64,000 bases of DNA from NCBI GenBank assembly GCA_964577715.1, contig CAZOAA010000001.1:13396-77395 (forward strand), in the 5' to 3' direction. This document shows positions 9,639-40,208 of this stretch, piece by piece (position 1 is the stretch's first letter; each line of letters opens with the position of its first letter). The notes below the pieces were generated by a model. That model made no database searches and was not told the DNA's origin. It worked only from the letters and a program-made list of their open reading frames with translations. A program made the translations under genes and the position numbers. Source of the stretch: an uncultured Candidatus Thioglobus sp. (GTDB taxonomy: Bacteria > Pseudomonadota > Gammaproteobacteria > PS1 > Pseudothioglobaceae).

Positions 9639-9644
9639 GTAGCA

Positions 9645-9730: not shown

Positions 9731-9752
9731 GGGTCAAGATAACTTTAGAGGT
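9731..9752. repeat. IS terminal inverted repeat at the left window-side end (contains the transposase stop codon)
   Basis: See the mobile_element entry. 21/22 match to the reverse complement of 10445..10466. Confidence 0.85.
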
Positions 9753-12513: not shown

Positions 12514-13742
12514 TAGTGAATAATTTACCTAAGGCGCCACCTTCTAAAACCGTTATCTTCTGTAAAACTTGTGTAATCTCAAATCAAAAACCTGTTTCAT
12601 CAATTGAATCTTCTCACTCGCAAGGAGATATAAAGAAAACGGTAAACTTTAAAGATGGAATTTGTGATGCTTGCCACTGGGCTAAAATTAAAGATCAAGA
12701 TATTGATTGGCAAGCTAGAGAGAGTGAATTAAAGAAACTACTTGACAAGCATAGAAAAAATAATGGTGAATATGATGTAATTGTCCCAGCTAGTGGGGGT
12801 AAGGATTCAATGTATGTGGCTCATATGTTGAAAGAAAAGTATAATATGAACCCTTTAACTGTAACATGGAAGCCCCATGTTTTTACACCTATTGGATTTG
12901 AAAACTTTATGAGTTTAATAGATAGTGGCCAAAGCAATCTAATGTTTTCTCCCCCTGGAGATATACAAAGGAGATTAACCTCTCTAGCATTTAAGAATCT
13001 AGGCCATCCATTTCAACCTTTTATTGTTGGACAAAGAGTTGTTGGTCCTAAGGCAGCACTAATGAACAATGTTAAGCTGGTCTTTTATGGTGAGAATGTT
13101 GCTGAATATGGTAATCAAATTAAAGATAATTACAGCCCCATTATGGATCCAGAGCTTTACACTTGTTTTAACCATGATAAAGATACTTTAGATTTATTTA
13201 AACTATCTGGTATTACTTTGAAAGACCTTATTGATAAACATGATTTCTCAATCAGTGATTTTGAGTCATATAAATCGCCATCATTGCTTGAAGTTGAGTC
13301 TGCAGGGATTCAAGTTCATTATATGTCTTATTATAAAAAATGGAATCCACAAGAAAACTATTATTATTCGGTTCAATATACAGGATTTAAGGCTAGTGAT
13401 AGGCGCAAAGATGGTAGTTACTCCAAGTACGCAGGAATTGATGATATTATGGAAGACTTGCATTTTTATATGCAAGTAATCAAGTTTGGTATGGGTAGAT
13501 GCACATGGGATGCTGCACAAGAAGTTAGGTCGGGTATGCTTGAAAGGCATGAAGAAGTGGCTTTGGTATCTAAGTATGATCAAGAGCAGCCAACTCAGTA
13601 TTTTCAAGAAATTCTTGAATATTTAAATATTTCTGAAAGTGAGTTTTGGTCAGTGATTGATTTTTTTAGACCTGAACATCTTTGGAGAGAGTTAGATGAT
13701 GGTAGTTTTTCTCTTAAACATCCTATAAGGTATGATACCTGA
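12510..13742 (+). CDS. wbuX: N-acetyl sugar amidotransferase (WbuX/PseA/LfnA-type PP-loop ATPase)
   Basis: N-terminal Cys pairs (CKTC..., CDAC), PP-loop VPASGGKDS, about 410 aa. Forms the canonical partnership with the HisH/HisF-like pair. Confidence 0.78.
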   Translation: MIVNNLPKAPPSKTVIFCKTCVISNQKPVSSIESSHSQGDIKKTVNFKDGICDACHWAKIKDQDIDWQARESELKKLLDKHRKNNGEYDVIVPASGGKDSMYVAHMLKEKYNMNPLTVTWKPHVFTPIGFENFMSLIDSGQSNLMFSPPGDIQRRLTSLAFKNLGHPFQPFIVGQRVVGPKAALMNNVKLVFYGENVAEYGNQIKDNYSPIMDPELYTCFNHDKDTLDLFKLSGITLKDLIDKHDFSISDFESYKSPSLLEVESAGIQVHYMSYYKKWNPQENYYYSVQYTGFKASDRRKDGSYSKYAGIDDIMEDLHFYMQVIKFGMGRCTWDAAQEVRSGMLERHEEVALVSKYDQEQPTQYFQEILEYLNISESEFWSVIDFFRPEHLWRELDDGSFSLKHPIRYDT

Positions 13743-15603: not shown

Positions 15604-17244
15604 ATGGAAAAATGTAATATCTTTATTTTTAGAGGCAAATGCACATTTTTTTTGAAAATATATAGCCGTATATCTAAAAATAAGATCTATTCATGGAATA
15701 AATGCAGATCTATAAAAAAAATACCTTATAGTCACTCCTGTTCTTTCTTCTCTAATAAGGAAAAGGCAAGGCGTATTTTTAATAATTATTTTGAAAATAA
15801 TATGCCTAATAAGGAGTGCCTATCTACTCAGTATATTAAAAAAATGCTGATTAGTGATTTTGATGAATATTATTCATTTACAGCGCAAGTACTGCAAATG
15901 AATAAGAAAATATATAAGATAATTGGCGCTGGAATATTTAAAAATATTTATGATAATAGAAAGATAAAAACAAGCTATTTTTTAATATTTGGATATACTG
16001 TTGCCATAGTTAAGATGTCCCTTGTCTTTTTGAGACTTTACCTCTTGTGTTATATGCAAAAAAGCAGTATTAAGGTTGGAGATGTTGTGTATTTAAGAAG
16101 AAAAGCTCTTCCAGATGCTTTTTTAAATTCTCATAAATTTTTTATAAAAAACAAAGTTTCATTTTCAGGTGTAATTTTTGATTTCAGCAACTCTATATCT
16201 AAATACGATCTTTATTTTTTAAGTAGTTTTGTAAATTCTTTTGCGGCATTGAAAAAAGCAGCAAGAATAGTTGTTAGATCTATTTTAAAAGATACAACTA
16301 CTTTTTATGCTTTATCAGTCTCTACCAGACAGTATTATAATTTTTTAAGGGAAACACTTTATGTTAATACTTTGTTAGAATTAAAGCCAAAGGTTATATA
16401 TGGATCTTTGACAGACCGACCTTACGGTGTTCTTTTGTATAAACATAAAAAACCTTTTCAAAAAATATGCATGCATAGTGATGGGTTTTATTTTGATCCG
16501 TTACCGGGCCCAGAATATGTGTATGCGGATGTATTTTATGGAATGAATGAGTTGGACTGTAATAATATAAACCGCCATGGCGGCGGTATTTTAAAAATAA
16601 TAGATGCAGGGTTTTATCGAAAAACTATTAGGGCTAAGTCTAAAGGGGTGCATAAAGATTTAAAAAGGTTGATTTTTGAATTTGAGCATATTGTGGTTAT
16701 TACCTTGGCAACGGTTAGAGTTAACAAGTATTTTCCAATTGATTTGGCATACTTTAAAGATTTTATTCTTGAAATAATAGAGCAAACAAGTGTTTTTGAT
16801 AAATCCCTCTTTATTCTAAAAGGAAAAAAGGGTGAGATAGAGTTGATTCCAGATGAATATGCTAAATTTTTATCACAAAAGGAAAATGTATACATAGTCC
16901 CATGTGATGTGCCATATTTGCTCGAGTACAATCATTATGAGGATCTTATTGATTATGCAGATTTAGTTGTATCTATGCACTATGCTTCTATGACAGTGTG
17001 GCAGTCAATAGCAAGTGAAATACCTACTATAGGATATAACTATTGTAATGATATAACTGAATTTTCAAACTCTCCATATTTTATTGTTAATAAGGGTGGG
17101 TTACTACAAGCAATTAAATATTGGAAGGGTTTGGATGAATGCACAAAAAAACATTTTTTCCAAAATATTAAAGGAAAGGCAAACTTACATCGCAAAGATG
17201 CGTTACACGATATGTATTCAAGCCTCTCTTCTATGGTTGGCTGA
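15604..17244 (+). CDS. Hypothetical protein; orphan TagF/KpsC-like transferase candidate
   Basis: 546 aa with no strong motif. C-terminal YADLVVSMHYASMTVWQSIASEIPTIGY resembles the terminal GT-B motif shared with the ORFs at 2, 27238 and 43086. Confidence 0.3.
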   Translation: MEKCNIFIFRGKCTFFLKIYSRISKNKIYSWNKCRSIKKIPYSHSCSFFSNKEKARRIFNNYFENNMPNKECLSTQYIKKMLISDFDEYYSFTAQVLQMNKKIYKIIGAGIFKNIYDNRKIKTSYFLIFGYTVAIVKMSLVFLRLYLLCYMQKSSIKVGDVVYLRRKALPDAFLNSHKFFIKNKVSFSGVIFDFSNSISKYDLYFLSSFVNSFAALKKAARIVVRSILKDTTTFYALSVSTRQYYNFLRETLYVNTLLELKPKVIYGSLTDRPYGVLLYKHKKPFQKICMHSDGFYFDPLPGPEYVYADVFYGMNELDCNNINRHGGGILKIIDAGFYRKTIRAKSKGVHKDLKRLIFEFEHIVVITLATVRVNKYFPIDLAYFKDFILEIIEQTSVFDKSLFILKGKKGEIELIPDEYAKFLSQKENVYIVPCDVPYLLEYNHYEDLIDYADLVVSMHYASMTVWQSIASEIPTIGYNYCNDITEFSNSPYFIVNKGGLLQAIKYWKGLDECTKKHFFQNIKGKANLHRKDALHDMYSSLSSMVG

Positions 17245-18146
17245 TGCGAGTGAATATTTTTTATAGAAAAATGGTAAATGTATTGTATTCTTTCAAAGAC
17301 TCGTTTTTTCTTTATAAAATTATATTGAAGTCTTTTTTTGGAGGGGGGGGGAGTAAGATAATTGTTACATCCATTCCAAAGTCTGGCACGCATTTAATTG
17401 AAAAGTTATTGGTTGATTTTTTTAGTTTTATTAAATTTGGTGATGGTATTAATAGAATGCATTATCCAAATAATGAGGGAAGGTTTAATAAAGTAAGAAA
17501 GAAAATCTCCCTCCTTCCTCGATCATGTTTTATTTCAAGTCATTTATTTTATGATGCTGAAATTGGCGAATTGATGGCCAAAAAAGATATAAAAATAATT
17601 TTAATGATTCGAGATCCGAGAGATATTGTTGCTTCAGCTGCAAGATACATCACTGAAAGTTCACATCCTTATTCTCCTCATTTTACAAATAAGTCGAAAG
17701 AAGAAGTTATAGAGATGATTATAACTGGAATTACAGGTCCAATATTAATGCACAGACCTAAAGATCCAAGTATGAGAGCTGAATATACTACGAACCATAA
17801 CATGTTTAGTGGTATTTTAGAAGCATACCGAAGGTTTTTACTGTGGAGTGAAGTTGGTGATGCTTTAGTAGTAAAATTTGAAGATCTTGTCGGGACTTCT
17901 GGAGGTGGTGACATAGGAAGGCAGCGAAAAATAATTTACAAAATAGCTAAATTGTGCAAGAGTCATGTGTCTGATAGTGATATGAGTAATATTATTGACA
18001 ATCTGTTCGGAGGAACGTCAACCTTTAGAAGGGGTAGAATCAACACCTGGAGTGATGAATTTACAGAAAAAAATAAAAAAACTTTTAAAATCAATACTGG
18101 AAGTTTACTTGTTGATTTGGGTTATGAAAAAGACAATAGATGGTGA
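17244..18146 (+). CDS. PAPS-dependent sulfotransferase
   Basis: 5'-PSB loop SIPKSGTHL and 3'-PB motif MIRDPRDIVAS. TGATG junction with the upstream ORF. Confidence 0.8.
   Translation: MRVNIFYRKMVNVLYSFKDSFFLYKIILKSFFGGGGSKIIVTSIPKSGTHLIEKLLVDFFSFIKFGDGINRMHYPNNEGRFNKVRKKISLLPRSCFISSHLFYDAEIGELMAKKDIKIILMIRDPRDIVASAARYITESSHPYSPHFTNKSKEEVIEMIITGITGPILMHRPKDPSMRAEYTTNHNMFSGILEAYRRFLLWSEVGDALVVKFEDLVGTSGGGDIGRQRKIIYKIAKLCKSHVSDSDMSNIIDNLFGGTSTFRRGRINTWSDEFTEKNKKTFKINTGSLLVDLGYEKDNRW
17343..17351 (+). repeat. Poly-G tract (G9) inside the sulfotransferase CDS
   Basis: gga ggg ggg ggg agt encodes GGGGS, lying between the start codon and the PAPS-binding loop. It is the longest G/C homopolymer I found in the window. 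Confidence 0.9.
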
Positions 18147-18156
18147 TCGGTAAAGA

Positions 18157-18659
18157 ATGAACATTAACAATATAGATTTATTTGTATTTGATTTTGACGG
18201 TGTGTTGACCAATAACCTTGTTTATACAAATGAGTTGGGAGAGGAATTTGTTGTTTGTAGTCGTAGTGATGGCTTGGGATTTGATTTGTTAAAGGCAATA
18301 AAAAAAGAGTCTTGTATATTGTCAACCGAAAAAAACCATGCTGTTTCAGCGAGAGCAAAAAACTTAATATCCCTGTAATTCAAGGGGCTGGGGATAAGGT
18401 TGATGTATTGAAAAATATTGCAAAAGAGCGAAATATTAGCCTTGACGGTATTTTTTATGTTGGCAATGATGTTAATGATTATTATGCTATGGATATTTGC
18501 GGTTATACAGCTTGCCCATCTGATAGTCATAGTTTAATTAAAAACAATGTGGACTACATACTTAAAGCTAAAGGTGGGCATGGAATTGTTCGTGAAATAT
18601 TAGAAGATGTTTTTCAATTAAATATACTTAAATTACTTAAAAAACTAAAAGATGAATAA
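18157..18659 (+). pseudogene. KdsC-family HAD phosphatase paralogue, frameshifted at an A6 run (18357..18362)
   Basis: ORF 18157..18378 (DFDGVLT ... STEKNHAVSARAKN) and ORF 18312..18659 (KKLNIPVIQG ... GNDVNDY ...) are the N- and C-terminal halves of one protein. Together they are colinear with the intact paralogue at 19499..20017. Adding one A to the A6 run restores ...ARAKKLNIPVIQG... Confidence 0.8.
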
Positions 18660-19491
18660 ACCAATATTTATTATTGCAGAGATTGGAATAAATCACAATG
18701 GAGATATGCAGATATGTAAAGACTTGATTGATGTTGCTATTGATGCTGGTTGTAATGCAGTAAAGTTTCAAAAAAGAGACGTTAATCAAGTTTATACACA
18801 AGAGTTCTTAGATTCGTCTAGAGAGAGTCCATGGGGTACTACACAAAGGGAGCAAAAGAGCGGACTGGAGTTTGGAGTTGATGAATATCGAGAAATTGAT
18901 CAATATTGTAAAGAAAAAGATATAGAGTGGTTTGCTTCGGCATGGGATTTAAACAGCCAAGTATTCTTGCAGCAGTTTGATTGTAAGTACAATAAAATTG
19001 CCTCAGCCATGATTGTCTGCGAAGACCTTTTAAGGCTGGTTGCCAAAGAAGGAAGGCACACCTTTATATCAACAGGGATGACAACCTATGATGACATTAG
19101 CAAAGCTGTTGACATTTTTAACGAGGAAGGTTGTTCGTTTGAGCTGATGCATACAGTATCTACCTACCCAATGAAAGATGAAAATGCAAATCTAAAAATG
19201 ATCGATACTCTCAAGCGGAAGTACCAATGCAATGTTGGTTATAGTGGACATGAAGTTGGCTTGGCAGTTTCATATGCCGCCGCTGCTTTAGGAATTTCCT
19301 CGCTAGAAAGGCATATTACCATGGACAGATCTATGTACGGTTCTGACCAGTCTGCTTCGGTAGAATCGGCAGGATTGAGAACTTTGGTGGGAGCGGTAAG
19401 AAAAATAGAAAAAGCAATGGGCGACGGTATTAAAAAAACTATAGAGGAAGAAGGGCCAGTGGCACAGAATTTAAGACAACATTTGAGTTAA
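18652..19491 (+). CDS. NeuB-family ulosonic acid (phosphate) synthase, short form without C-terminal SAF domain
   Basis: IIAEIGINHNGDMQICKDLIDVAIDAGCNAVKFQ, GYSGHE and LERHIT motifs. Only 279 aa, whereas typical NeuB is about 340-350 aa. Confidence 0.8.
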   Translation: MNKPIFIIAEIGINHNGDMQICKDLIDVAIDAGCNAVKFQKRDVNQVYTQEFLDSSRESPWGTTQREQKSGLEFGVDEYREIDQYCKEKDIEWFASAWDLNSQVFLQQFDCKYNKIASAMIVCEDLLRLVAKEGRHTFISTGMTTYDDISKAVDIFNEEGCSFELMHTVSTYPMKDENANLKMIDTLKRKYQCNVGYSGHEVGLAVSYAAAALGISSLERHITMDRSMYGSDQSASVESAGLRTLVGAVRKIEKAMGDGIKKTIEEEGPVAQNLRQHLS

Positions 19492-19498
19492 ATAATAA

Positions 19499-20017
19499 AT
19501 GGATAGATTTATATCTATAGACTGCATAGATGTCTTGGTTTTTGACTTTGACGGTGTATTGACTGATAATTCAGTCTATATTGATGAAAGCGGTAGAGAG
19601 CAGGTTAAATGCAGTAGATCGGATGGGTTGGCTTTCGATGTTTTGCGAAAGATTAACAAACCTGTTTGTATTATCTCTACTGAAAAGAATTCCGTTGTCT
19701 CTTCTAGAGCTGCAAAATTACGCATACCAGTAATTCAAGGTGTATCTGATAAAGCAAGAGAATTAGAGAAACTTGCAAATGAGCACTCTTATCAATTGTC
19801 AAAAATACTATTTGTGGGTAATGATTTAAATGATTATCCGGCGATGAACTTATGTGGTTTTACAGCGTGTCCGGGCGACAGTCATCAGGTAATTCAAGAG
19901 TTGTCCACTTTTGTACTTCGAACAGAGGGTGGCAAAGGGGTTGTTAGAGAGTTGATAGAAGAAATCTTCCAGTTAGATCCATTGAAGATATTATTTGAGA
20001 TTGAGAATAAGAGGTAA
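19499..20017 (+). CDS. KdsC-family HAD-IIIA ulosonate-phosphate phosphatase
   Basis: VFDFDGVLTDN (DxDGV), STEKN, GNDLNDY. 172 aa. Confidence 0.8.
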   Translation: MDRFISIDCIDVLVFDFDGVLTDNSVYIDESGREQVKCSRSDGLAFDVLRKINKPVCIISTEKNSVVSSRAAKLRIPVIQGVSDKARELEKLANEHSYQLSKILFVGNDLNDYPAMNLCGFTACPGDSHQVIQELSTFVLRTEGGKGVVRELIEEIFQLDPLKILFEIENKR

Positions 20018-20019
20018 TA

Positions 20020-20856
20020 ATGAAAAATGATTTTGGCGTAATGCAAGGAAGGCTGTTGCCTAAATACCAAGGAAGGTATCAAGCCCATCCGTTAGGGTAC
20101 TGGCAAGAAGAATTTCTTGTGGCATCAGAGTTGGGATTGGATTGTATTGAGTTTATATTGGATTTTAATGATGCCGAGAAAAACCCTTTGTTAGCGAAAG
20201 ATGGAGACTTAAAGATTGCAAATGTGGTCAATAAAACAGGTGTATCTGTTAAAACCATTTGTGCAGACTACTTTATGGAGGTGCCACTGCATACTGATGA
20301 TCAGTTAGTGGCTGATACAAGCTACAAGGTCTTAGAAACACTGGTTGATTCGGCTTCGAAGTTGGGTGTAACAGATATTGTAATACCTTGTGTTGATCAA
20401 TCTTCGTTGAACAGTGAGATTAAAGTCGAACGTTTTATTGGCCAAATAAAGCCCATAATACCAACTCTTAAGAGTAAGAATATTAACCTATCTTTAGAGA
20501 CAGATTTAGCACCAGATGCATTTTCTGCGTTATTAAGAGCAATCGGTTCAGAGAAAGTTACTGTTAATTATGATATCGGTAATAGTGCTGCATTAGGATT
20601 TAACCCAGTCGAGGAGTTGGAGGCCTATGGTGATAGAATTACCGACATACATATTAAGGATAGAGTACTGGGAGGGGGTCCGGTAACATTAGGCGAAGGC
20701 GATGCGGATTTTCAATGTTTTTTCCAAAAGCTAAAAGAGTTTGATTATAGAGGGCCCTTTATTATGCAGGCTTATCGAGATGATGAAGGTGTTGAGATCT
20801 TCAAAAAACAGCAACAGTGGATTTTAGAAATGATGCATAATTTTTATGAGGATTAG
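20020..20856 (+). CDS. Xylose-isomerase-like TIM-barrel sugar(-phosphate) isomerase/epimerase family protein
   Basis: 278 aa. Spaced acidic/His motifs (IEFILDF, LSLETD, NYDIGNS, HIKD) fit the AP_endonuc_2 fold. Confidence 0.55.
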   Translation: MKNDFGVMQGRLLPKYQGRYQAHPLGYWQEEFLVASELGLDCIEFILDFNDAEKNPLLAKDGDLKIANVVNKTGVSVKTICADYFMEVPLHTDDQLVADTSYKVLETLVDSASKLGVTDIVIPCVDQSSLNSEIKVERFIGQIKPIIPTLKSKNINLSLETDLAPDAFSALLRAIGSEKVTVNYDIGNSAALGFNPVEELEAYGDRITDIHIKDRVLGGGPVTLGEGDADFQCFFQKLKEFDYRGPFIMQAYRDDEGVEIFKKQQQWILEMMHNFYED

Positions 20857-21538
20857 TTGCATTATTCTCGCCCGAGGTGGATCAAAGGGTATACCTAAAA
20901 AAAATATTATCGATTTTTGCGGGAAACCGCTAATTGCTTGGACCATTCTACAAGCCTGTAAAGCTGAAGGGGTGAGTGATATCTGGGTAAGCTCTGACAG
21001 TGAAGAGATCTTGGAGGTTGCTGAACAGTATGGCGCTAATACTATTGCTCGACCTGAAGAAATATCAGGAGATTTAGATTCTTCTGAGTCAGCTTGGTTG
21101 CACGCAGTTGATTTTATTGAGCAAAGGTCAAACCATCCAATTGATTATATTCTAGCGCCACAAGCAACTTCCCCATTGCGACACCCTGAAGATTTTTCTG
21201 GCGCTATTAGACAGGTTATACAAGAGAGGTCAGATTCGTTGTTATCTGTATCCGAGATTGAAGATTTTTTTATTTGGAAAAAGGGACGTGAACATATAGA
21301 GTCGGTCAACTATGATTATAAAAATAGAAAGCCTCGACAACAGATTGAAGAAACGTATTTAGAAAATGGCTCTTTCTACTTATTTAAGCCTCAATTATTG
21401 CGCAATGAAAACAACCGATTGGGTGGTGATATTTCATTGTTTAAGATGGATAGATATAAAATGTTTCAGATAGACAATGTTGATGATATTAAACTTTCTT
21501 CGGTAATTATGAAAGGTTTTGGCCTAAATAACTTATGA
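20846..21538 (+). CDS. Acylneuraminate (NeuA-type) cytidylyltransferase
   Basis: IILARGGSKGIPKKN N-terminal motif, 230 aa. Confidence 0.8.
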   Translation: MRISCIILARGGSKGIPKKNIIDFCGKPLIAWTILQACKAEGVSDIWVSSDSEEILEVAEQYGANTIARPEEISGDLDSSESAWLHAVDFIEQRSNHPIDYILAPQATSPLRHPEDFSGAIRQVIQERSDSLLSVSEIEDFFIWKKGREHIESVNYDYKNRKPRQQIEETYLENGSFYLFKPQLLRNENNRLGGDISLFKMDRYKMFQIDNVDDIKLSSVIMKGFGLNNL

Positions 21539-22284
21539 CTGACTATCTTGAGAATCTTTTTTCTCTTAAAGGCAAGACAGCCATTGTAACTGGTGGCTCA
21601 AGAGGTATTGGTGCCGAGATCGCGCTAGCTTATGCTAACTGCGGAGCTAATGTGGTTTGTATTGCTAGATCAGAGTTGGCAGACGATGAGCGACTCCAAT
21701 CGCTTTATCGTCAGTGTGATATCTCCGATGAGAGACAGTTCCAAGAGCTCTGTGAATCAGTAAAATCTAACTATGGCGGCATTGATATTTTAGTAAATGC
21801 CGCTGGTATTAGCCTTTCCGAGGTTGATTCGAAAGATGAATTAGAGCGTTTTACAAAAACTCTTGAGGTTAATTTAATTGCAACCTACCAGTGCTGCAAT
21901 ACCGCCTCTAAATTTATGAAAAATGGAGGTTCAATTATTAACATTACCAGTATTGGTGCTATGCAAGGTTTTCCAAATAACCCGAGTTATGTGGCAAGTA
22001 AAGGCGGCGTTAAAATGTTGACCAAAGCGTTAGCAGTAGACCTAGGAGCTAAGGGTATTCGAGTCAATAATATTGCGCCCGGATATATTAAAACTGACAT
22101 GACAGCCAAGAGCTTTGCAAATCCGGTTGCAAATAAAGAACGAGTAGATCGAATGATCATTCCACGATGGGGCGAAACCATAGATTTGGTTGGAGCTGCG
22201 ATTTTTCTAGCATCGAAAGCCTCTTCTTATACAACAGGGTCAAGTCTAGTGATTGATGGTGGCTGGACCGCCAAAGGTATGTAA
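21535..22284 (+). CDS. Short-chain dehydrogenase/reductase (classical SDR)
   Basis: TGGSRGIGAEIA, NAAG, SYVASKGG (YxxxK). Confidence 0.85.
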   Translation: MTDYLENLFSLKGKTAIVTGGSRGIGAEIALAYANCGANVVCIARSELADDERLQSLYRQCDISDERQFQELCESVKSNYGGIDILVNAAGISLSEVDSKDELERFTKTLEVNLIATYQCCNTASKFMKNGGSIINITSIGAMQGFPNNPSYVASKGGVKMLTKALAVDLGAKGIRVNNIAPGYIKTDMTAKSFANPVANKERVDRMIIPRWGETIDLVGAAIFLASKASSYTTGSSLVIDGGWTAKGM

Positions 22285-22286
22285 AC

Positions 22287-23057
22287 ATGGATCTGCATTT
22301 GCTAAACAAGAGAGTGGTGATTACAGGGTCTTCTGGCGGTATCGGTAAAGCTATTGCAAAAGGATTTCTGGAAGAGGGTGCTAGTGTGATAATAGTGGCA
22401 AGAGACCAAGATAAGTTAAGCAAGACTGCAGCAGAGTTAAGTAAGGCCTATGGTGACGATAAGGTCTTTTTTGCCATCTGTGACTGTTCAAAGGAAGAGA
22501 GCGTGCAACAGTTGAGAGGCTTTGTTAGGAAAACTTGGAATGGTGTAGACATTGTTGTGGCTAATGTTGGCAGTGGTAGAAGCGTTCCAGACGCCATACC
22601 CTCAACCGCACAATGGAGCAGAGTATGGAGTAGTAATTTTGACTCCGCATTACATACTGCGCGTATTTTTACCCCTATGCTAGAAGAATCCAGAGGTAGT
22701 CTGTTGTTTATTTCCTCTATCGCTGGACTAGAGGCATTTGGCGCGCCTGTGGACTATTCAACTGCTAAAGCAGCCATTATCGCTTTTGCTAAGAATATGT
22801 CAAGAAAACTAGCGCATATTCGGGTTAATGTTGTTGCCCCGGGAAATGTTTACTTTGAGGGCGGCTCCTGGGATGAAAAAATTAAGCAAGACAAAGATCG
22901 TGTTGATAGTCTGATTCGCTCAACTGTCCCTGTGAATCGTTTTGCTTCACCAGAGGAGATTTCGGATGCGGTGGTTTTTTTATGCTCTGATAGAGCAAAT
23001 TTTATAACCGGCGCAACTCTAGTAGTTGACGGCGGCCAGACCGTAGGAGTTTATTAA
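22287..23057 (+). CDS. Short-chain dehydrogenase/reductase (classical SDR)
   Basis: TGSSGGIGKAIA, YSTAKAA (YxxxK). Confidence 0.85.
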   Translation: MDLHLLNKRVVITGSSGGIGKAIAKGFLEEGASVIIVARDQDKLSKTAAELSKAYGDDKVFFAICDCSKEESVQQLRGFVRKTWNGVDIVVANVGSGRSVPDAIPSTAQWSRVWSSNFDSALHTARIFTPMLEESRGSLLFISSIAGLEAFGAPVDYSTAKAAIIAFAKNMSRKLAHIRVNVVAPGNVYFEGGSWDEKIKQDKDRVDSLIRSTVPVNRFASPEEISDAVVFLCSDRANFITGATLVVDGGQTVGVY

Positions 23058-23885
23058 ATGTCAGATAATTTATTTCGATTAGATGGAAAGGTGGTGGTTA
23101 TTACTGGAGCTGCCGGCTTACTGGGAAGGCAGCATGCACAAGCAGTGGCGAGTCATGGCGGCACACCTATTTTGTTGGACTTGTCTCAACGCGATGTGGA
23201 CAGTATTGCAACTGAATTAAATGTTAAGTATGGCGTAAACGCATTAGGCTTCTCTGTCGACATTACGAACGAAGAGCAAGTCAAGGAAAATGCAGATTAT
23301 CTATTTAGTTTTTTCGGCAAAATCGATGGACTGGTTAATAATGCTGCCAACAACCCCAAAGTTGAAGACAGTGATGAGGTAAATTTCTCTAGATTGGAGC
23401 ACTTTCCTTTAGATGTTTGGCAGGATGACATAATGGTAGGGCTAACAGGTTCGTTTTTATGTGCAAAGCACTATGGAGCAAAAATAGCGCAAAGCCAAAG
23501 TGGCGGAACGATTGTTAATATTGCCTCAGATCTTGGGCTAATTGCGCCTGATCAGCGCCTTTATAGGCAGGAGGGTGTTGCCGATGATTTGCAAAATGTT
23601 AAGCCTGTCACTTATTCAGTTGTTAAGTCCGGCTTAGTTGGTTTAACGAGATATCTAGCAACATATTGGCCGGACAAGAATGTAAGATGTAACGCCATGT
23701 GTCCAGGCGGGGTAGAAAACGGCCAACCGGAAGACTTTCTGCAGGCTGTACATGCAAGAATACCCATGGGTAGAATGGCACAGCCTAATGAATATCAGAC
23801 TACGCTTTTATGGATGCTGAGCGATGCATCTGGCTACTTGAACGGGGCTGTTATTCCAGTAGATGGTGGCAGAACAACCTGGTAG
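23058..23885 (+). CDS. Short-chain dehydrogenase/reductase (classical SDR)
   Basis: TGAAGLLGRQHA, NNAA, YSVVKSG (YxxxK). Confidence 0.8.
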   Translation: MSDNLFRLDGKVVVITGAAGLLGRQHAQAVASHGGTPILLDLSQRDVDSIATELNVKYGVNALGFSVDITNEEQVKENADYLFSFFGKIDGLVNNAANNPKVEDSDEVNFSRLEHFPLDVWQDDIMVGLTGSFLCAKHYGAKIAQSQSGGTIVNIASDLGLIAPDQRLYRQEGVADDLQNVKPVTYSVVKSGLVGLTRYLATYWPDKNVRCNAMCPGGVENGQPEDFLQAVHARIPMGRMAQPNEYQTTLLWMLSDASGYLNGAVIPVDGGRTTW

Positions 23886-24204: not shown

Positions 24205-25275
24205 ATGAAAAGTTACACTACAGATGGAAAGGTTGTTCACCTCTCGAAAACAGAACAAATAAATGATAAATTGTCTAGAATTTTAGGCAGTAAATTTGTT
24301 GAATATAGGGACGAGTGGGATAGGGCTAACAGATTGGAGTTAGTTACTGAGTTTCCATTATTTTTACAATTAGATATGAATCAAGAGTGTAATTTTGAGT
24401 GTCCTCATTGTATTGTGGGGGATATGAGTGTAGCTAAAAAGTACTACAGTGGAGCTCCATTAAGCTGGGAAAAATATAAAATTATTGTTGATGAGGGTAG
24501 AGAGCATGGCTGTCCATCTATTTCTTTACAAGGAAATAATGAGCCTTTAATGATAAAAGACTTGGAAAAATATATTGAATATGCGCATAATAATGGTTTT
24601 ATGGATATTATGATAAATTCAAATGCTTCACCATTAACTGAAAAAAGAGCTAAATCCATATTAGATAGTGGATTGACAAGAATTAGATTTAGTTTGGATG
24701 CTGCGGATAAGTCTACATTTGAAAAAATTAGATTAGGTGGAAGATATGATCAAGTCATTAGAAATATTGATAGATTTTTGGAGATTAAAGAAAAGGGCGG
24801 GTACAATCTGCCAGTAACTGGCGTTAGTTTTTGCCATCAAAAAGACAATGAAAATCAAGTAGAGTCTTTTATTAAACAGTGGCAAGATAAGGTTGATATG
24901 GTAACAATACAGAAATATATGCCACCTGCTCCAGAGCCAGGATATGACAAGTTTTACCCATCTGCTCAAAAGGATAATGACCAGATTGTAAGTAAGGGTT
25001 TTAAGTGTCCACAACCATTTCAAAGGGTTACCATTAGAAATTCAGAGATAACTCCGTGTTGTGCAGCAATTAGTAGTCAGTTAAAGATAGGGGAAGTTGG
25101 GAAAACAACTATATATGAAGCTTGGAATTCAAAAGGAATGCAGAAGTTGAGAAAATTACATATTGAGGGTAGGTGGTACGATAACCCAGTTTGTAAGGTT
25201 TGTATAGAAATGTCAGACCCTAAGGCAAAATTTTACACCTCTAAAGCAATCGAGTTAGATATGGATTTGTCTTGA
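24205..25275 (+). CDS. Radical SAM enzyme with C-terminal SPASM/twitch-like Cys cluster
   Basis: CNFECPHC (CxxxCxxC) at about residue 62. C-terminal CPQPF ... TPCCA ... CKVC cysteines. Confidence 0.8.
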   Translation: MKSYTTDGKVVHLSKTEQINDKLSRILGSKFVEYRDEWDRANRLELVTEFPLFLQLDMNQECNFECPHCIVGDMSVAKKYYSGAPLSWEKYKIIVDEGREHGCPSISLQGNNEPLMIKDLEKYIEYAHNNGFMDIMINSNASPLTEKRAKSILDSGLTRIRFSLDAADKSTFEKIRLGGRYDQVIRNIDRFLEIKEKGGYNLPVTGVSFCHQKDNENQVESFIKQWQDKVDMVTIQKYMPPAPEPGYDKFYPSAQKDNDQIVSKGFKCPQPFQRVTIRNSEITPCCAAISSQLKIGEVGKTTIYEAWNSKGMQKLRKLHIEGRWYDNPVCKVCIEMSDPKAKFYTSKAIELDMDLS

Positions 25276-26249
25276 TAAATATAGTAATTGTAGGTTGTGG
25301 AGAGTTTGGAAGTAGACATTTACAAGCATTGTCTTATTTACAAGAATCATCAAATGTGTTTTTAGTTGATAGATCTGAACAATCTTTAACTGTTGCAATA
25401 GATAGATTTAATAGTGTTTATAATAAAAAATTACAATCATTAGTCAAGGTTGTTGGTGTTAAAAGTATAGATGAGATACAAGAAAATATTGACTTGGTTA
25501 TTGTTGCTACAAGTTCTAAAGATAGATTGTTAACTTTGTCTAATGTGTTGAGTGTTATTTCTCCAAAATATATTATTCTAGAAAAGTTTTTATTTCAAGA
25601 GTCGCAAGACTTTGTTGATGCTAAGTTGTTGATTGACGCGTCATCAACAGAGGTTTTTGTTAATCAATGGCTAAGTTCTAATTATTTGTTTTCTAGAATT
25701 AGAAGTTGGCTTGGAGAATTCAATAAATTAAAAATGACAGTTAGTGGTGGAAATTGGGGAATTTCATGCAACTCAATACATTTTGTGGATTATTTTGAAA
25801 CTCTTATTGGTAAGAGTATTGATACGGCAAGTGGAATGTTAAATAGAGTTTATGCAGCAAAAAGAGAGGGATTTTATGAGTTTAATGGATCCATTGTATT
25901 AAACAGTGGTACTAATTTCAATCTTGAGTTGATTTCGGAGGATACTCATGAGGTTGATGTGAATATTCTTATTGAAACCGAAGATAAAACAGTTAGTGCC
26001 AGCATAAAACCTAATCAACAGGTTTTTGTCAATTTTAAAGATTTTCAGCAAGATGTTGATGAAATTGGAAGTATTCCATTTCAAAGTAAAATTACTAATG
26101 TATTGGTGGAAGAGTTAATGATATTTGGATACTCAAGATTGCCAACATATGAAAAAGCATCAAGACAGCATATGTTATTATTGCCAATTTTTAATAAATA
26201 TATTAGAGAAAATTCTAGCTGGAACGGACAAGGCTGCCCCATTACATAA
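25272..26249 (+). CDS. Gfo/Idh/MocA-like NAD(P)-binding oxidoreductase (divergent)
   Basis: N-terminal IVIVGCGEFGSRHLQAL Rossmann motif, ILEKF in place of the EKP motif, 325 aa. Confidence 0.55.
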   Translation: MINIVIVGCGEFGSRHLQALSYLQESSNVFLVDRSEQSLTVAIDRFNSVYNKKLQSLVKVVGVKSIDEIQENIDLVIVATSSKDRLLTLSNVLSVISPKYIILEKFLFQESQDFVDAKLLIDASSTEVFVNQWLSSNYLFSRIRSWLGEFNKLKMTVSGGNWGISCNSIHFVDYFETLIGKSIDTASGMLNRVYAAKREGFYEFNGSIVLNSGTNFNLELISEDTHEVDVNILIETEDKTVSASIKPNQQVFVNFKDFQQDVDEIGSIPFQSKITNVLVEELMIFGYSRLPTYEKASRQHMLLLPIFNKYIRENSSWNGQGCPIT

Positions 26250-26270
26250 AATACAATTAAAAGATTAAAT

Positions 26271-27236
26271 ATGAAATTAGCATTGATAGGATGTGGAAAT
26301 ATTGCAGAATTACACGTTCCGGCTTTTAAGGCGGCAGGGTTTGATGTTTGTTGCGTTGCGGGCTCATTAAATTCTATAAATGTTGATGATTTTGCAAAGC
26401 GACACCAGATAGATAAAGTGTATAAAGATCCAGATGATTTGGTACATTCAAACCTATGGGATGCTATCTTAATTGTATCATCAATCGACTCTATACTTGG
26501 ATATATAAAAAAATCCAGTGTCTATAATAAGCCAATTTTAGTAGAAAAGCCTGTTTCGTTAAACTATAAAGAATTGGATAGCGTATTAGATTTTGATAAT
26601 GTTTATGTTGCCTACAATAGAAGATTCTATAGCACAACTAGTTATGCAAATGATTTTTTAAAAAATCATAAAAAGTCTTTAATAAAAATTACTATTCCAG
26701 AATCTAGTATGGGTGAGCTAGGGTTTAACAGTTTTCCGAATCTACTGCCATCAAGGGTTTACGAAAATTCTGTCCATGTAATTGACTTGGTTAATTACAT
26801 CGCTGGAAAGATTGAGTGGACGCATGTCGATCATTTATTAGATAAAGAAAAATATTTATCTGTATCTGCTCTTGGAATAAGCAAAGAAGGGCACAATATT
26901 ATTTTAAATGTGTGTTTTGACGCCCCTGATAATTTTTCTATAGATATTACAAATGGAAATGAGCGCATTGAAATGCGTCCGATTGAGATTGCTTATCATT
27001 ATAAAGGAATGAGAGTTGAGGAGCCAAGTGACGATATTCCGATTAGAAGATATTTGCCTTTGGTAAAAAATACTGTTATTAATTCTAGCTCACGGGAAGA
27101 ATTAAAACCCGGGTTTTATGAGCAAGCTAATGATTTTATGGATATATGCAAGGGTGAAAAAATAACAAATAGTGCAACATTAATAGATGCTAAAAATGCT
27201 CTTGAGGTAGTTCATAGGCTGCGAAATAATATCTAG
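26271..27236 (+). CDS. Gfo/Idh/MocA-family oxidoreductase
   Basis: LALIGCGNIAELHVPAF and ILVEKPVSL motifs. Confidence 0.7.
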   Translation: MKLALIGCGNIAELHVPAFKAAGFDVCCVAGSLNSINVDDFAKRHQIDKVYKDPDDLVHSNLWDAILIVSSIDSILGYIKKSSVYNKPILVEKPVSLNYKELDSVLDFDNVYVAYNRRFYSTTSYANDFLKNHKKSLIKITIPESSMGELGFNSFPNLLPSRVYENSVHVIDLVNYIAGKIEWTHVDHLLDKEKYLSVSALGISKEGHNIILNVCFDAPDNFSIDITNGNERIEMRPIEIAYHYKGMRVEEPSDDIPIRRYLPLVKNTVINSSSREELKPGFYEQANDFMDICKGEKITNSATLIDAKNALEVVHRLRNNI

Positions 27237-37899: not shown

Positions 37900-37902
37900 G
37901 TA

Positions 37903-40199: not shown

Positions 40200-40208
40200 T
40201 TTATTAAA

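What the first reader, a model, noticed from the sequence alone, without database searches (positions are those of the whole stretch)
18652..23885. Phosphatase-dependent NeuB-like pathway with three SDRs: candidate new CMP-ulosonic acid
Seen, in gene order:
- A short NeuB (279 aa, no SAF domain).
- A KdsC-type phosphatase.
- A xylose-isomerase-fold TIM barrel.
- A NeuA-type cytidylyltransferase.
- Three consecutive classical SDRs.

No NeuC/PseB/LegB-type UDP- or GDP-HexNAc tailoring genes are adjacent.

Established:
- Bacterial Neu5Ac, Pse and Leg synthases condense PEP with non-phosphorylated hexosamines and need no phosphatase.
- Synthase-plus-KdsC-type-phosphatase pairs are the hallmark of Kdo-8-P and of the Kdn-9-P/Neu5Ac-9-P type routes.

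Inference:
- The module likely makes an ulosonic acid via a phosphorylated intermediate from a sugar phosphate supplied by the TIM-barrel isomerase.
- The three SDRs then oxidise, epimerise or reduce it, before or after CMP activation.
- I cannot match this enzyme set to any described nonulosonic or octulosonic acid pathway.
Basis: partly seen in the sequence, partly recalled or inferred. Interest (0 to 1): 0.7.

Follow-up and report, generated by a model that had tools for sequence, protein, structure and literature searches.

The report
Uncharacterised Kdn-type CMP-sugar operon
A seven-gene operon inside a large cell-surface polysaccharide locus most likely builds an activated, sialic-acid-like acidic sugar through a phosphorylated intermediate and then remodels it; the same module is widespread in environmental and marine bacteria, and its product has never been identified.

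Summary
Seven tightly packed + strand genes at 18652-23885 encode a SAF-less NeuB, a KdsC-family HAD phosphatase, a xylose-isomerase-fold TIM barrel, a NeuA-type cytidylyltransferase and three distinct classical SDRs. No NeuC/PseB/LegB gene or second NeuB lies in the 64 kb.

It is not a one-off. NeuB and TIM are 65-87 % identical in thousands of metagenomic proteins, and the module recurs in many phyla, including SAR11, Prochlorococcus and a cultured Azospirillum.

The synthase is outside the curated NeuB/LegI and PseI families. It sits in a 100 %-supported SAF-less clade, sister to animal Neu5Ac-9-P/Kdn-9-P synthase. The HAD is closest to the Bacteroides Kdn-9-P phosphatase. A phosphorylated route is therefore well supported.

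In relatives the likely substrate supplier is a GmhA-type isomerase, which this window lacks. TIM instead co-varies with SDR2 and SDR3. One slot holds either SDR1 (this window) or an aminotransferase, never both.

Best reading: a CMP-activated, Kdn-like, all-hydroxy ulosonic acid, remodelled by oxidation, carbonyl-adjacent rearrangement and reduction. The product, including C9 versus C10, is unresolved. I found no described pathway that matches. Verdict: new variant of a known kind.

The parts
18158..18650 (+). Frameshifted remnant of a second KdsC-type HAD phosphatase gene (pseudogene), in the position where most relatives keep their intact HAD
   Evidence: tblastn of the intact HAD gives two pieces in different frames: 18157-18366 (61 % identity to residues 5-74) and 18303-18623 (47 % identity to residues 54-160). 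The sequence begins ATGAAC... and contains a DFDGVLTNN motif. The 115-aa ORF at 18312-18659 hits only the C-terminal end of Hydrolase_3. GC is 31 %, like the flanks.
18652..19491 (+). SAF-less, NANS-like PEP-condensing ulosonate synthase (short NeuB, 279 aa); inferred to use an aldose phosphate
   Evidence: PF03102 only. Below the NeuB_NnaB and PseI cutoffs. The metal, PEP and catalytic residues of N. meningitidis NeuB are kept, except E134->Met120 and N184->Ser170. It has 'SGH' instead of 'SDH' and a 'PWG' loop insertion shared with recalled human NANS. Clade support is 100 %. More than 8000 homologues; the best 120 listed are 80-87 % identical.
19499..20017 (+). KdsC-family (C0-type) HAD phosphatase, Kdn-9-P-phosphatase-like; inferred ulosonate-phosphate phosphatase
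   Evidence: NCBIfam KDN-9-P phosphatase 110 bits, KdsC subfamily 92 bits, both below cutoff. PDB: 3mmz 112 bits, Bacteroides Kdn-9-P phosphatase 3e81 88.6 bits, KdsC about 64 bits. D10/D12 and E56/R64/K67 (3e81 numbering) are conserved in all syntenic HADs.
20020..20856 (+). Metal-dependent xylose-isomerase-fold TIM barrel, UlaE-like; inferred epimerase/isomerase (or eliminase) acting next to a carbonyl
   Evidence: PF01261. AF2 model pLDDT 86. Best PDB fold match is L-xylulose-5-P 3-epimerase UlaE: TM 0.8, E 2e-17, 22 % identity. Invariant E160/D185/H211/E256 and a basic N-terminal loop. More than 4000 homologues; the best 120 listed are 63-82 % identical. Fused to CTase or VOC in other proteins.
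20846..21538 (+). NeuA/CMAS-type cytidylyltransferase (CMP-ulosonate synthetase)
   Evidence: PF02348. PseF model 121 bits, below the 206 cutoff. Best PDB hit is the mouse CMP-Neu5Ac synthetase 1qwj at 105 bits; KdsB reaches only 33 bits or less.
21535..22284 (+). SDR1: NADP-type classical SDR in the variable slot; inferred ketoreductase that replaces the aminotransferase of most related modules
   Evidence: adh_short_C2 202 bits. TGGSRGIG and ...CIARSE motifs are conserved. Present only in the window, L007, L082-85 and L086, all of which lack an aminotransferase; 16 other TIM/SDR2/SDR3 loci have an aminotransferase and no SDR1.
22287..23057 (+). SDR2: NADP-type classical SDR, core partner of TIM and SDR3; inferred reductase
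   Evidence: adh_short_C2 170 bits. The conserved Arg after strand beta2 (VIIVARDQ) is seen. Co-occurs with TIM and SDR3.
23058..23885 (+). SDR3: NAD-type, PtmA-like SDR, core partner of TIM and SDR2; inferred dehydrogenase that creates the carbonyl
   Evidence: Best NCBIfam hits are PRK09186 (164 bits) and flagellin modification protein PtmA (112 bits), both below cutoff. The conserved Asp at the end of beta2 (PILLDLS) and YxxxK are seen. It is 40 % identical to the PtmA of the Azospirillum Leg cluster.

Best explanation
The seven genes form one operon that makes a CMP-activated 3-deoxy-2-ulosonic acid of the Kdn type, for incorporation into the surrounding Wzx/Wzy-type surface polysaccharide.

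Proposed steps:
1. The SAF-less, NANS-like synthase condenses PEP with an aldose phosphate. Candidates are mannose-6-P or D-glycero-D-manno-heptose-7-P. This genome must make the substrate outside the window, because the dedicated GmhA-type isomerase of related modules is missing here.
2. The Kdn-9-P-phosphatase-like HAD removes the terminal phosphate.
3. The NeuA-type enzyme adds CMP.
4. The sugar is remodelled, probably after condensation. NAD-type SDR3 oxidises a hydroxyl. The UlaE-like metal TIM barrel does enediolate chemistry (epimerisation, carbonyl shift or beta-elimination) next to that carbonyl. NADP-type SDR2 and SDR1 reduce the carbonyl(s).

SDR1 occupies the slot that most relatives fill with an aminotransferase. 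The window variant should therefore give an all-hydroxy (non-amino) sugar where most relatives give an amino sugar.

What is shown: gene content, family membership, conserved synteny, slot exclusivity and fusions.
What is inferred: substrate identity, order of steps, which carbon is modified, and the direction of each SDR.
For: - Domains and tight gene packing.
- The synthase is below the curated NeuB/LegI and PseI cutoffs. It keeps the metal and PEP residues but shares 'SGH' and the PWG loop with recalled NANS. BLAST gives 184 bits to NANS against 100-109 bits to NmNeuB, PseI and SpsE. The NJ tree gives 100 % for the SAF-less clade, 100 % for the window clade, and NANS as sister at 76 %.
- The HAD is closest to Kdn-9-P phosphatase and carries E56/R64/K67. 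HAD-NeuB synteny holds across phyla, and CTase-HAD and HAD-SIS fusions exist.
- NANS-type enzymes from B. thetaiotaomicron, Prymnesium and human use Man-6-P or ManNAc-6-P (PMC6200933).
- The CTase is NeuA/CMAS-type.
- TIM is UlaE-like, co-varies with SDR2 and SDR3 at p = 2e-6, and is fused to a CTase and to a VOC protein.
- SDR1 and aminotransferase are mutually exclusive: 4 loci against 16, none with both, p = 2e-4.
- Cofactor motifs.
- The NeuB phylogeny does not follow slot type, which argues for a common NeuB substrate and late tailoring.
- Polysaccharide context: glycosyltransferases, Wzx, Wzy and an ABC exporter.
Against: - There is no biochemical evidence for any member of this clade.
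- About ten loci have a 70 %-identical NeuB but no KdsC-type HAD within 10 kb, so a phosphatase is not obligatory in cis.
- Catalytic Glu134 is Met here, so the chemistry may differ in detail.
- TIM's nearest relative acts on a sugar phosphate, and PtmA is placed in the early sugar-phosphate segment of the Leg pathway. Tailoring before condensation is therefore a serious alternative.
- The human NANS and E. coli KdsC sequences, and the Glu56/Lys67 specificity markers, were recalled from memory, not fetched.
- The tree is neighbour-joining only.
- SDR cofactor rules do not fix the physiological direction.
Confidence: 0.55

Rival explanations
1. The end product is the same kind of sugar, but tailoring comes first. 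SDR3, TIM, SDR2 and SDR1 remodel a central ketose or aldose phosphate (fructose-6-P, sedoheptulose-7-P or a pentulose-5-P) into an unusual aldose phosphate. NeuB then condenses that with PEP. This is essentially the first reader's idea that the TIM barrel feeds the synthase.
For: - TIM's best sequence and fold match is the phospho-ketose 3-epimerase UlaE.
- The invariant basic N-terminal loop lies where, from memory, UlaE binds phosphate.
- SDR3 resembles PtmA, which is assigned to the first (sugar-phosphate) segment of the Leg pathway.
- The Serratia KL1/KL2 'NeuB' carries a COG1082 TIM domain (PMC9000132).
- In known NulO pathways the core redox and amination steps precede condensation (established knowledge).
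Against: - NeuB is 65-87 % identical across modules with very different tailoring sets (SDR1, class III or class IV aminotransferase, radical SAM, or none), and its tree does not follow slot type.
- TIM is absent from many HAD-NeuB-CTase loci.
- TIM is fused to the CTase, the last enzyme of the pathway.
- A dedicated GmhA-type isomerase already fills the supplier role in relatives.
Confidence: 0.25
2. NeuB, HAD and CTase simply make ordinary CMP-Kdn, as in Bacteroides thetaiotaomicron and Serratia. TIM and the SDRs serve another sugar of the same polysaccharide, or are accessory.
For: - The HAD is Kdn-9-P-phosphatase-like.
- The sister clade, with only CTase-HAD-NeuB, occurs in Arthrobacter/Paeniglutamicibacter and Prevotella and looks like the known Kdn pathway.
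- Serratia strains with only neuA and a NeuB-COG1082 fusion make Kdn.
- Kdn-type acids are common in environmental prokaryotes (PMC8157484).
Against: - TIM, SDR2 and SDR3 stay next to this NeuB clade across many phyla, and never accompany the Kdn-like clade: 0 of 22 loci for TIM and SDR2.
- Gene overlaps indicate one operon.
- The window clade is distinct from the Kdn-like clade (100 % support, about 44 % identity) and differs at the E134 position and in the alpha2beta2 loop.
Confidence: 0.12
3. The module makes a non-glycan metabolite: a free or CMP-linked keto-acid used as a solute, signal or natural-product precursor, not as a polysaccharide building block.
For: - The classical SDRs are FabG/KduD/gluconate-5-dehydrogenase-like.
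- Some related loci carry radical SAM, TPP-enzyme or carbamoyltransferase/SxtJ genes reminiscent of secondary metabolism.
Against: - In the window the module sits among glycosyltransferases, Wzx, Wzy and an ABC exporter.
- The closest relatives lie beside rml genes.
- Azospirillum places it next to a legionaminic-acid and glycosyltransferase locus.
- NeuA-type CMP activation is known only for glycosyl donors (established knowledge).
Confidence: 0.05

Closest known systems
[quoted passage not shown]
   Same: - PEP-condensing NeuB-family synthase, a KdsC-family HAD phosphatase and a NeuA-type CTase.
- The HAD is nearer to BT1713 (3e81) than to KdsC and keeps E56/R64/K67.
- The synthase lacks SAF and shares the 'SGH' and PWG-loop features of the whole SAF-less family.
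   Different: - The window synthase is in a separate, 100 %-supported clade, about 41-45 % identical to the Kdn-like clade.
- It has Met at the E134 position.
- It is accompanied by TIM, SDR2, SDR3 and a slot enzyme, and in relatives by a GmhA-type isomerase. None of these occur in the Kdn-like loci.
Animal sialic acid pathway (NANS Neu5Ac-9-P/Kdn-9-P synthase, NANP phosphatase, CMAS)
   Same: - Phosphorylated substrate logic.
- 38 % identity and 184 bits to recalled human NANS, with a shared loop insertion and 'SGH'.
- The CTase's best PDB hit is mouse CMAS.
- CTase-HAD fusions in relatives mirror the CMAS domain order (the CMAS architecture is from memory).
   Different: - No AFP/SAF domain.
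- No ManNAc kinase or epimerase.
- Extra redox and TIM enzymes.
Kdo pathway (KdsD, KdsA, KdsC, KdsB)
   Same: Same four-step logic: SIS isomerase, PEP condensation, C0-type HAD phosphatase, CMP activation.
   Different: - The synthase is NeuB-family, not KdsA.
- The CTase is NeuA-type: KdsB models reach at most 44 bits and KdsB structures at most 33 bits.
- The HAD carries Kdn-type rather than KdsC-type residues.
- The SIS partner in relatives is GmhA-type, not KdsD.
Canonical bacterial NeuB / LegI / PseI nonulosonic acid pathways
   Same: NeuB-fold synthase with conserved metal and PEP ligands. SDR3 is PtmA-like.
   Different: - Scores are below both curated cutoffs.
- No SAF domain.
- No NeuC/PseB/LegB or NDP-sugar enzymes feeding it.
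- Canonical long paralogues coexist separately in some genomes, for example the LegI in Azospirillum.
Serratia marcescens KL1/KL2 capsule neuA plus 746-aa neuB (PF03102 + COG1082), which gives Kdn (PMC9000132)
   Same: A NeuB-family synthase is physically linked to a sugar-phosphate isomerase/epimerase-type TIM domain and a NeuA, inside a capsule locus.
   Different: - That locus has no SDRs reported next to neuAB, and the paper does not mention a phosphatase.
- I could not retrieve the sequence, so orthology of its TIM domain to the window protein is untested.

Membership tests
N-acetylneuraminate / legionaminate synthase (NCBIfam TIGR03569 NeuB_NnaB) | Whole-protein score at or above the curated cutoff (399.65 bits) | tested here: not met
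   244.9 bits, matching model positions 1-278 of 329.
N-acetylneuraminate / legionaminate synthase (NCBIfam TIGR03569 NeuB_NnaB) | C-terminal SAF/antifreeze-like domain that contributes Arg314 to the substrate site | tested here: not met
   The protein ends at residue 279. Pfam finds PF03102 only. The alignment to 1xuu stops at residue 272 of 349.
N-acetylneuraminate / legionaminate synthase (NCBIfam TIGR03569 NeuB_NnaB) | Catalytic and metal residues E25, E134, E234, H215 and H236 (N. meningitidis numbering) | tested here: inconclusive
   E25, E234, H215 and H236 are conserved. E134 is replaced by Met120 throughout the window clade.
Pseudaminic acid synthase PseI (TIGR03586) | Score at or above the curated cutoff (340.25 bits), and clustering with PseI | tested here: not met
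   173.5 bits. PseI (8h2c) falls outside the SAF-less clade in the tree.
Phospho-sugar-using sialic acid synthases (NANS / Kdn-9-P synthase type) | Groups phylogenetically with NANS or Kdn-9-P synthases rather than with NeuB/LegI/PseI | tested here: met
   The SAF-less clade has 100 % support and recalled human NANS is its sister at 76 %. BLAST gives 184 bits to NANS against 100-109 bits to canonical enzymes. Caveats: the NANS sequence came from memory, BT1714 itself was not available, and the tree is NJ only.
Phospho-sugar-using sialic acid synthases (NANS / Kdn-9-P synthase type) | Uses an aldose 6-phosphate (Man-6-P or ManNAc-6-P) and not the free sugar | not testable with these tools
   This needs an enzyme assay. 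The indirect support is the syntenic Kdn-9-P-phosphatase-like HAD.
Kdn-9-P phosphatase (NCBIfam NF058599) | Score at or above the curated cutoff (180 bits) | tested here: not met
   109.7 bits. It is the best family hit, ahead of the KdsC models.
Kdn-9-P phosphatase (NCBIfam NF058599) | HAD catalytic Asp pair plus the Glu56/Arg64/Lys67 substrate-site residues (marker status recalled from Lu et al. 2009; the paper was not retrievable) | tested here: met
   D16/D18, E62, R70 and K73 align with D10/D12, E56, R64 and K67 of 3e81. Recalled E. coli KdsC has Arg and Thr at positions 56 and 67.
KdsC, Kdo-8-P phosphatase (NF007019 / TIGR01670) | Score at or above the curated cutoffs (208 and 106.95 bits) | tested here: not met
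   90.7 and 92.4 bits. KdsC structures score about 54-64 bits, against 88.6 for Kdn-9-P phosphatase.
L-xylulose/L-ribulose-5-P 3-epimerase (UlaE/SgbU; NF009689, TIGR00542) | Score at or above the curated cutoffs (200-317 bits) | tested here: not met
   71-82 bits. Only 22 % identity to UlaE, although UlaE is the best fold match. The protein is like UlaE but is not a member of that family.
L-xylulose/L-ribulose-5-P 3-epimerase (UlaE/SgbU; NF009689, TIGR00542) | Four-residue metal site (Glu, Asp, His, Glu) of the xylose-isomerase-like TIM barrel | tested here: inconclusive
   E160, D185, H211 and E256 are invariant in 26 homologues and fall close to UlaE's E155/D185/H211/E251 (numbers recalled from memory). 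No residue-level superposition was made.
CMP-sialic acid synthetase, NeuA/CMAS type (PF02348) | CTP_transf_3 domain above the gathering score, and closer to NeuA/CMAS than to KdsB | tested here: met
   PF02348 87.6 bits against a 22.6 cutoff. 1qwj scores 104.7 bits; KdsB scores 33 bits or less. The specific PseF equivalog is not met (121 vs 205.7 bits).
Flagellin modification protein PtmA (NF050062) | Score at or above the curated cutoff (350 bits) | tested here: not met
   SDR3 scores 112 bits, and 164 bits against PRK09186 (cutoff 255). It is 40 % identical to the PtmA-position SDR of the Azospirillum Leg cluster.

The most novel reading that the evidence does not exclude
The dedicated GmhA-type isomerase found beside HAD-NeuB in most related modules supplies D-glycero-D-manno-heptose-7-phosphate. 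The NANS-like synthase would then make a ten-carbon 3-deoxy-deculosonic acid 10-phosphate. On this reading the module family, including this window's all-hydroxy variant, encodes a previously unknown class of CMP-activated C10 acidic sugars, spread through abundant marine and environmental bacteria such as SAR11, Prochlorococcus and the SUP05 group.
Probability: 0.18. Interest if true: 0.85.

Novelty: new variant of a known kind. Interest (0 to 1): 0.62.

Why it matters
Sialic-acid-like sugars on bacterial surfaces shape phage recognition, grazing, immune evasion and particle stickiness. Known bacterial routes either start from NDP-hexosamines (Neu5Ac, Leg, Pse) or give plain Kdn.

This module would be a third design: a Kdn-type phosphorylated route followed by modular redox tailoring, with an interchangeable reductase or aminotransferase step. 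It is strongly conserved, horizontally mobile, and present in some of the most abundant marine bacteria. Automatic annotation still gives only generic names.

Identifying the product would do three things:
- assign function to thousands of 'N-acetylneuraminate synthase' and 'L-ribulose-5-P 3-epimerase' annotations that are probably wrong;
- explain part of the Kdn-type and unassigned ulosonic acid signals seen in environmental surveys (PMC8157484);
- provide new enzymes for making rare ulosonic acids.

Tried and rejected
- **A second NeuB, NeuC, or PseB/LegB elsewhere in the window.** None was found.
- **TIM as a recent fusion partner of NeuB.** The exhaustive HMMER search found CTase-TIM, VOC-TIM and TIM-TIM fusions among the best 150 hits, but no NeuB-TIM fusion.
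- **Literature searches** for C10 ulosonic acids linked to GmhA/NeuB, for the gene combination, and for the Kdn-9-P phosphatase marker residues. None returned a matching pathway. Lu et al. 2009 is not in the searchable library.
- **Link to the C10 CMP-ulosonic acids of Magnetospirillum** (SugarBase preprint; PMC8157484). These are diamino/N-acetylated Pse/Leg-like compounds and no gene link is given, so I did not connect them to this module.
- **Promoter and terminator scan** of 17.9-24.4 kb. Counts were no higher than in shuffles, so it is uninformative.
- **Downstream radical SAM and two GFO_IDH_MocA genes (24205-27236) as part of the module.** Rejected as core. They are not conserved next to the module in the closest relatives, and they did not match the representative of the GFO cluster (c19) that accompanies SDR3 elsewhere.
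- **Organism identity.** Not determined. The exact proteins are known only from one NCBI/Logan contig without names.

Full report

Yes. The ORF listing gives seven consecutive + strand ORFs at exactly the stated coordinates. Their junctions run from an 11-base overlap to a 7-base gap.

Pfam and NCBIfam confirm each assignment:
- a 279-aa protein with only the NeuB domain (PF03102, residues 25-261) and no SAF domain;
- a 172-aa HAD whose best curated hits are the Kdn-9-P phosphatase and KdsC models;
- a 278-aa AP_endonuc_2 (xylose-isomerase-like) TIM barrel;
- a 230-aa CTP_transf_3 cytidylyltransferase;
- three classical SDRs.

The SDRs are only about 26 % identical to each other. I annotated nearly every ORF of 150 aa or more in the 64 kb. 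The window is one long, almost single-strand surface-polysaccharide locus. It holds an ABC exporter, an NDP-hexose pathway for a C-methylated N-formyl amino sugar, many GT2/GT4 glycosyltransferases, Wzx, Wzy, a sulfotransferase and methyltransferases. It has no NeuC, no PseB/LegB-type enzyme beside the module and no second NeuB.

Directly upstream of NeuB (about 18158-18650) lies a frameshifted second KdsC-type HAD gene.

The module is compositionally distinct: 40.5 % GC against 32.4 % for the rest of the window, with sharp edges at both ends.

**2. How widespread is it?**

The short NeuB has more than 8000 database homologues, and the best 120 are 80-87 % identical. The TIM barrel has more than 4000, and the best 120 listed are 63-82 % identical.

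A scan of one genome per species returned 80 loci. They come from Alpha-, Gamma- and Deltaproteobacteria, Bacteroidota, Cyanobacteria (Prochlorococcus, Phormidium), SAR11 single cells, Elusimicrobiota, Planctomycetota, Bacillota, Actinomycetota, Omnitrophota and others.

tblastn and all-against-all clustering of the neighbouring ORFs show a recurring architecture. It has a fixed core: [GmhA-type SIS isomerase]-HAD-NeuB-TIM-CTase ... SDR2-SDR3. One variable slot sits between the CTase and SDR2. The closest relatives (87 % NeuB; L082-85) have the same gene order as the window, with a carbamoyltransferase cassette inserted. A Methylomarinum MAG (L007) has all seven genes at 60-77 % identity, plus the SIS gene.

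A cultured strain, Azospirillum thermophilum CFH 70021, carries the module on plasmid NZ_CP029359.1. There the genes are CTase, SDR1 (52 %), TIM (43 %), SDR2 (42 %), SDR3 (54 %), HAD and short NeuB (56 %). They lie beside a complete legionaminic acid cluster that has its own canonical 358-aa NeuB. RefSeq gives the module only generic names there.

**3. What kind of synthase is it?**

It fails the curated cutoffs for NeuB/LegI (245 vs 400 bits) and PseI (174 vs 340 bits).

Against N. meningitidis NeuB (1xuu), residues E25, K53, Q55, K129, S132, S154, Y186, S213, H215, E234, H236 and D247 are kept. Catalytic E134 is Met120, and N184 is Ser170.

All SAF-less homologues share two features that canonical NeuB, PseI, SpsE, 6ncs and the long paralogues in the same loci lack. 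One is 'SGH' instead of 'SDH' at the metal histidine. The other is a 'PWG' insertion in the alpha2-beta2 loop.

With one method (blastp), the window protein scores 184 bits to NANS, 156 to the short Leptospira-type 6ncs, and 100-109 to NmNeuB, PseI and SpsE.

A bootstrapped NJ tree gives these supports:
- 100 % for the whole SAF-less family;
- 100 % for the window clade (55 sequences);
- 82 % for a second clade that is about 44 % identical to the window;
- NANS as sister to the SAF-less family at 76 %, with the canonical enzymes outside.

The second clade has the context CTase-HAD-NeuB only. It occurs in Arthrobacter/Paeniglutamicibacter, Prevotella and Lachnospiraceae, and looks like the known Kdn pathway.

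The refutation criterion 'clusters within canonical NeuB/LegI/PseI' is therefore not met. Published work shows that enzymes of the NANS/BT1714/Prymnesium type use Man-6-P or ManNAc-6-P and that the Prymnesium enzyme rejects free sugars (PMC6200933). A large phylogenetic study had noted SAF-less 'environmental' NeuBs without assigning them a function (PMC8208679).

**4. The phosphatase and the cytidylyltransferase.**

The HAD's best solved relatives are a Streptomyces HAD (3mmz, 112 bits) and the Bacteroides Kdn-9-P phosphatase (3e81, 88.6 bits). Both rank ahead of the KdsC enzymes (about 54-64 bits).

Every syntenic HAD, in both SAF-less clades, has the Asp pair and Glu56/Arg64/Lys67 of 3e81. 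From memory these are the Kdn-9-P phosphatase markers, where E. coli KdsC has Arg and Thr at positions 56 and 67.

HAD is fused to the CTase (cluster c12, the same domain order as vertebrate CMAS) or to the SIS isomerase (c24) in other genomes. The CTase is NeuA/CMAS-type: mouse CMAS scores 105 bits and KdsB at most 33.

Together these points make a phosphorylated Kdn-type route the best-supported reading.

There is one complication. About ten loci have a 70 %-identical NeuB but no such HAD within 10 kb. Prymnesium likewise lacks a recognisable Kdn-9-P phosphatase.

**5. Who supplies the substrate, and is the sugar C9 or C10?**

In 21 of 35 well-flanked window-clade loci, a SIS protein sits beside HAD-NeuB. 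It occurs in 0 of 22 loci of the Kdn-like clade (p = 2e-6). It scores 201.8 bits against the GmhA equivalog, whose cutoff is 209.45.

It is therefore a sedoheptulose-7-P isomerase or a very near variant. There are two options:
- The substrate is D-glycero-D-manno-heptose-7-P, which would give a ten-carbon acid.
- The enzyme has been recruited for the stereochemically analogous Fru-6-P to Man-6-P step.

Sequence cannot decide between these. The window has no SIS gene at all, so this genome must make the substrate elsewhere.

I found no literature on GmhA/NeuB-linked C10 acids. The C10 CMP-ulosonic acids reported in Magnetospirillum are N-acetylated Pse/Leg-like compounds with no gene link.

**6. 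The TIM barrel and the SDRs.**

The TIM model (pLDDT 86) matches the L-xylulose-5-P 3-epimerase UlaE best (TM 0.8, E 2e-17). Ketose 3-epimerases, the 3-keto-glucoside epimerase YcjR and a 3-keto-glucal hydratase follow at E of about 1e-12. It is far below the UlaE family cutoffs. It is therefore UlaE-like but not a UlaE.

The putative metal ligands and a basic N-terminal loop are invariant.

TIM does not track NeuB/HAD. It tracks SDR2 and SDR3: 11 of 12 TIM-positive loci have both, against 2 of 23 TIM-negative loci (p = 2e-6). In some loci a GFO/IDH/MocA oxidoreductase replaces SDR2, which recalls the PtmA (SDR) plus PtmF (oxidoreductase) pair of Leg clusters. Remote homologues include CTase-TIM, VOC-TIM and TIM-TIM fusions.

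The cofactor motifs are conserved. By the standard SDR rules, which are established knowledge and do not prove direction, they read as follows:
- SDR3 has an Asp at the end of beta2, which is NAD-type and fits a dehydrogenase.
- SDR1 and SDR2 have the basic residues of NADP-type reductases.

The slot between CTase and SDR2 is filled in one of three ways:
- SDR1, in the window, L007, L082-85 and Azospirillum;
- a class IV aminotransferase;
- a class III aminotransferase with a VOC protein and a methyltransferase.

The two aminotransferase forms together account for 16 loci. SDR1 and an aminotransferase never occur together (p = 2e-4).

The simplest reading is a shared keto intermediate. It is reduced here, giving a hydroxy sugar, and transaminated in most relatives, giving an amino sugar.

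NeuB is highly conserved whatever the tailoring set, and its tree does not follow slot type. I therefore favour a common NeuB substrate with tailoring after condensation.

It remains serious because TIM's nearest relative and PtmA both act on sugar phosphates, and because the Serratia KL1/KL2 'NeuB' (746 aa, PF03102 + COG1082) is linked to Kdn production (PMC9000132).

**7. Comparison with known systems, and novelty.**

The module works like the Kdn-9-P/Neu5Ac-9-P route. It fails the curated membership tests for NeuB/LegI, PseI, Kdn-9-P phosphatase, KdsC, UlaE, PseF and PtmA. It adds a conserved TIM/SDR2/SDR3 triad and a reductase-or-aminotransferase slot for which I found no description.

I file it as a new variant of a known kind. 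The general logic (PEP condensation with a sugar phosphate, dephosphorylation, CMP activation) is known. The tailoring logic, the product and possibly the chain length are not. Kdn-type and unassigned ulosonic acids are frequent in environmental prokaryotes (PMC8157484), so a chemical counterpart may already have been seen.

**8. Caveats.**

- No member of this clade has been studied biochemically.
- Three reference items came from my memory: the human NANS sequence, the E. coli KdsC sequence, and the Glu56/Lys67 marker status together with the UlaE ligand numbers.
- The tree is NJ on 275 columns.
- Co-occurrence counts depend on tblastn identity thresholds and on contig ends.
- The source organism is unknown.

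**Scores.**

- Interest: 0.62.
- Best explanation: 0.55.
- C10 reading: probability 0.18, interest 0.85 if true.

Noticed in passing
window 18158-18650 (+): A frameshifted KdsC-type HAD pseudogene lies directly upstream of NeuB, where most related modules keep their intact HAD. An intact, 47-61 % identical copy lies downstream (19499-20017). This suggests recombination between two module variants.
   Followed up: partly
window 36907-40961 (+): A second CMP-sugar-like cassette: D-2-hydroxyacid dehydrogenase, NAD epimerase/dehydratase, HAD_2 hydrolase, HpcH/HpaI class II pyruvate aldolase and a second CTP_transf_3 cytidylyltransferase (250 aa), followed by a Wzx-like flippase. An aldolase plus a CTase may indicate another keto-deoxy acid sugar pathway that uses an aldolase instead of a NeuB/KdsA-type synthase.
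   Followed up: no
window 9063-10420: The only minus-strand gene is an IS1595 (ISXO2-like) transposase (9734-10420). It sits beside a truncated AurF-like N-oxygenase fragment (9063-9638). This is a scar of mobile-element activity inside the polysaccharide locus.
   Followed up: no
window 18652-23885 versus flanks: The module has 40.5 % GC (GC3 0.31-0.39), against 32.4 % (GC3 about 0.21-0.29) for neighbouring genes, with sharp boundaries. This fits horizontal acquisition of the cassette from a higher-GC donor.
   Followed up: partly
window 3188-8651 (+): An NDP-hexose pathway: nucleotidyltransferase, 4,6-dehydratase, 3,5-epimerase, C-methyltransferase (PF08421/PF08484), DegT aminotransferase and N-formyltransferase. 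It predicts a C-methylated, N-formylated amino-deoxy sugar in the same glycan.
   Followed up: no
window 11105-13742 (+): HisF-like and HisH-like genes are followed by a 410-aa ORF with no Pfam hit. The arrangement resembles the WbuY/WbuZ/WbuX acetamidino-forming amidotransferase set. The Azospirillum Leg cluster has the same trio, annotated with an 'N-acetyl sugar amidotransferase'.
   Followed up: no
window 17244-18146 (+): A Sulfotransfer_1-family sulfotransferase lies immediately upstream of the module. It is also present in the independent Logan contig L001. The glycan may be sulfated.
   Followed up: no
window 18652-19491, residue 120: The window-clade NeuB has Met where N. meningitidis NeuB has catalytic Glu134. 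Met is nearly invariant in this clade. The Kdn-like clade has S/T/K/H there, and recalled NANS has Asp.
   Followed up: partly
L086 (NZ_CP029359.1, 109-135 kb): In cultured Azospirillum thermophilum CFH 70021, the SDR1-type module is split by an IS21 element. It lies next to a complete legionaminic-acid cluster (LegB, LegC, NeuC, LegH, PtmE, a GFO-type PtmF-like protein, LegF, PtmA, canonical NeuB and the acetamidino genes). One replicon thus carries both a canonical and a SAF-less synthase pathway.
   Followed up: partly
L047-L053: A sub-clade of the window-type NeuB (59-65 % identical) is followed by an acetolactate-synthase-like TPP enzyme instead of HAD/TIM/SDRs. In L051-L053 there is also a HAD-SIS fusion. 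This looks like yet another pathway built on the same synthase.
   Followed up: no
L020, L026, L028-L031, L034, L041, L045: An alternative architecture: SIS (in some loci)-NeuB-CTase, class III aminotransferase, VOC, methyltransferase and a small radical SAM protein. It has no KdsC-type HAD, TIM, SDR2 or SDR3. The small radical SAM protein and TIM never co-occur.
   Followed up: partly
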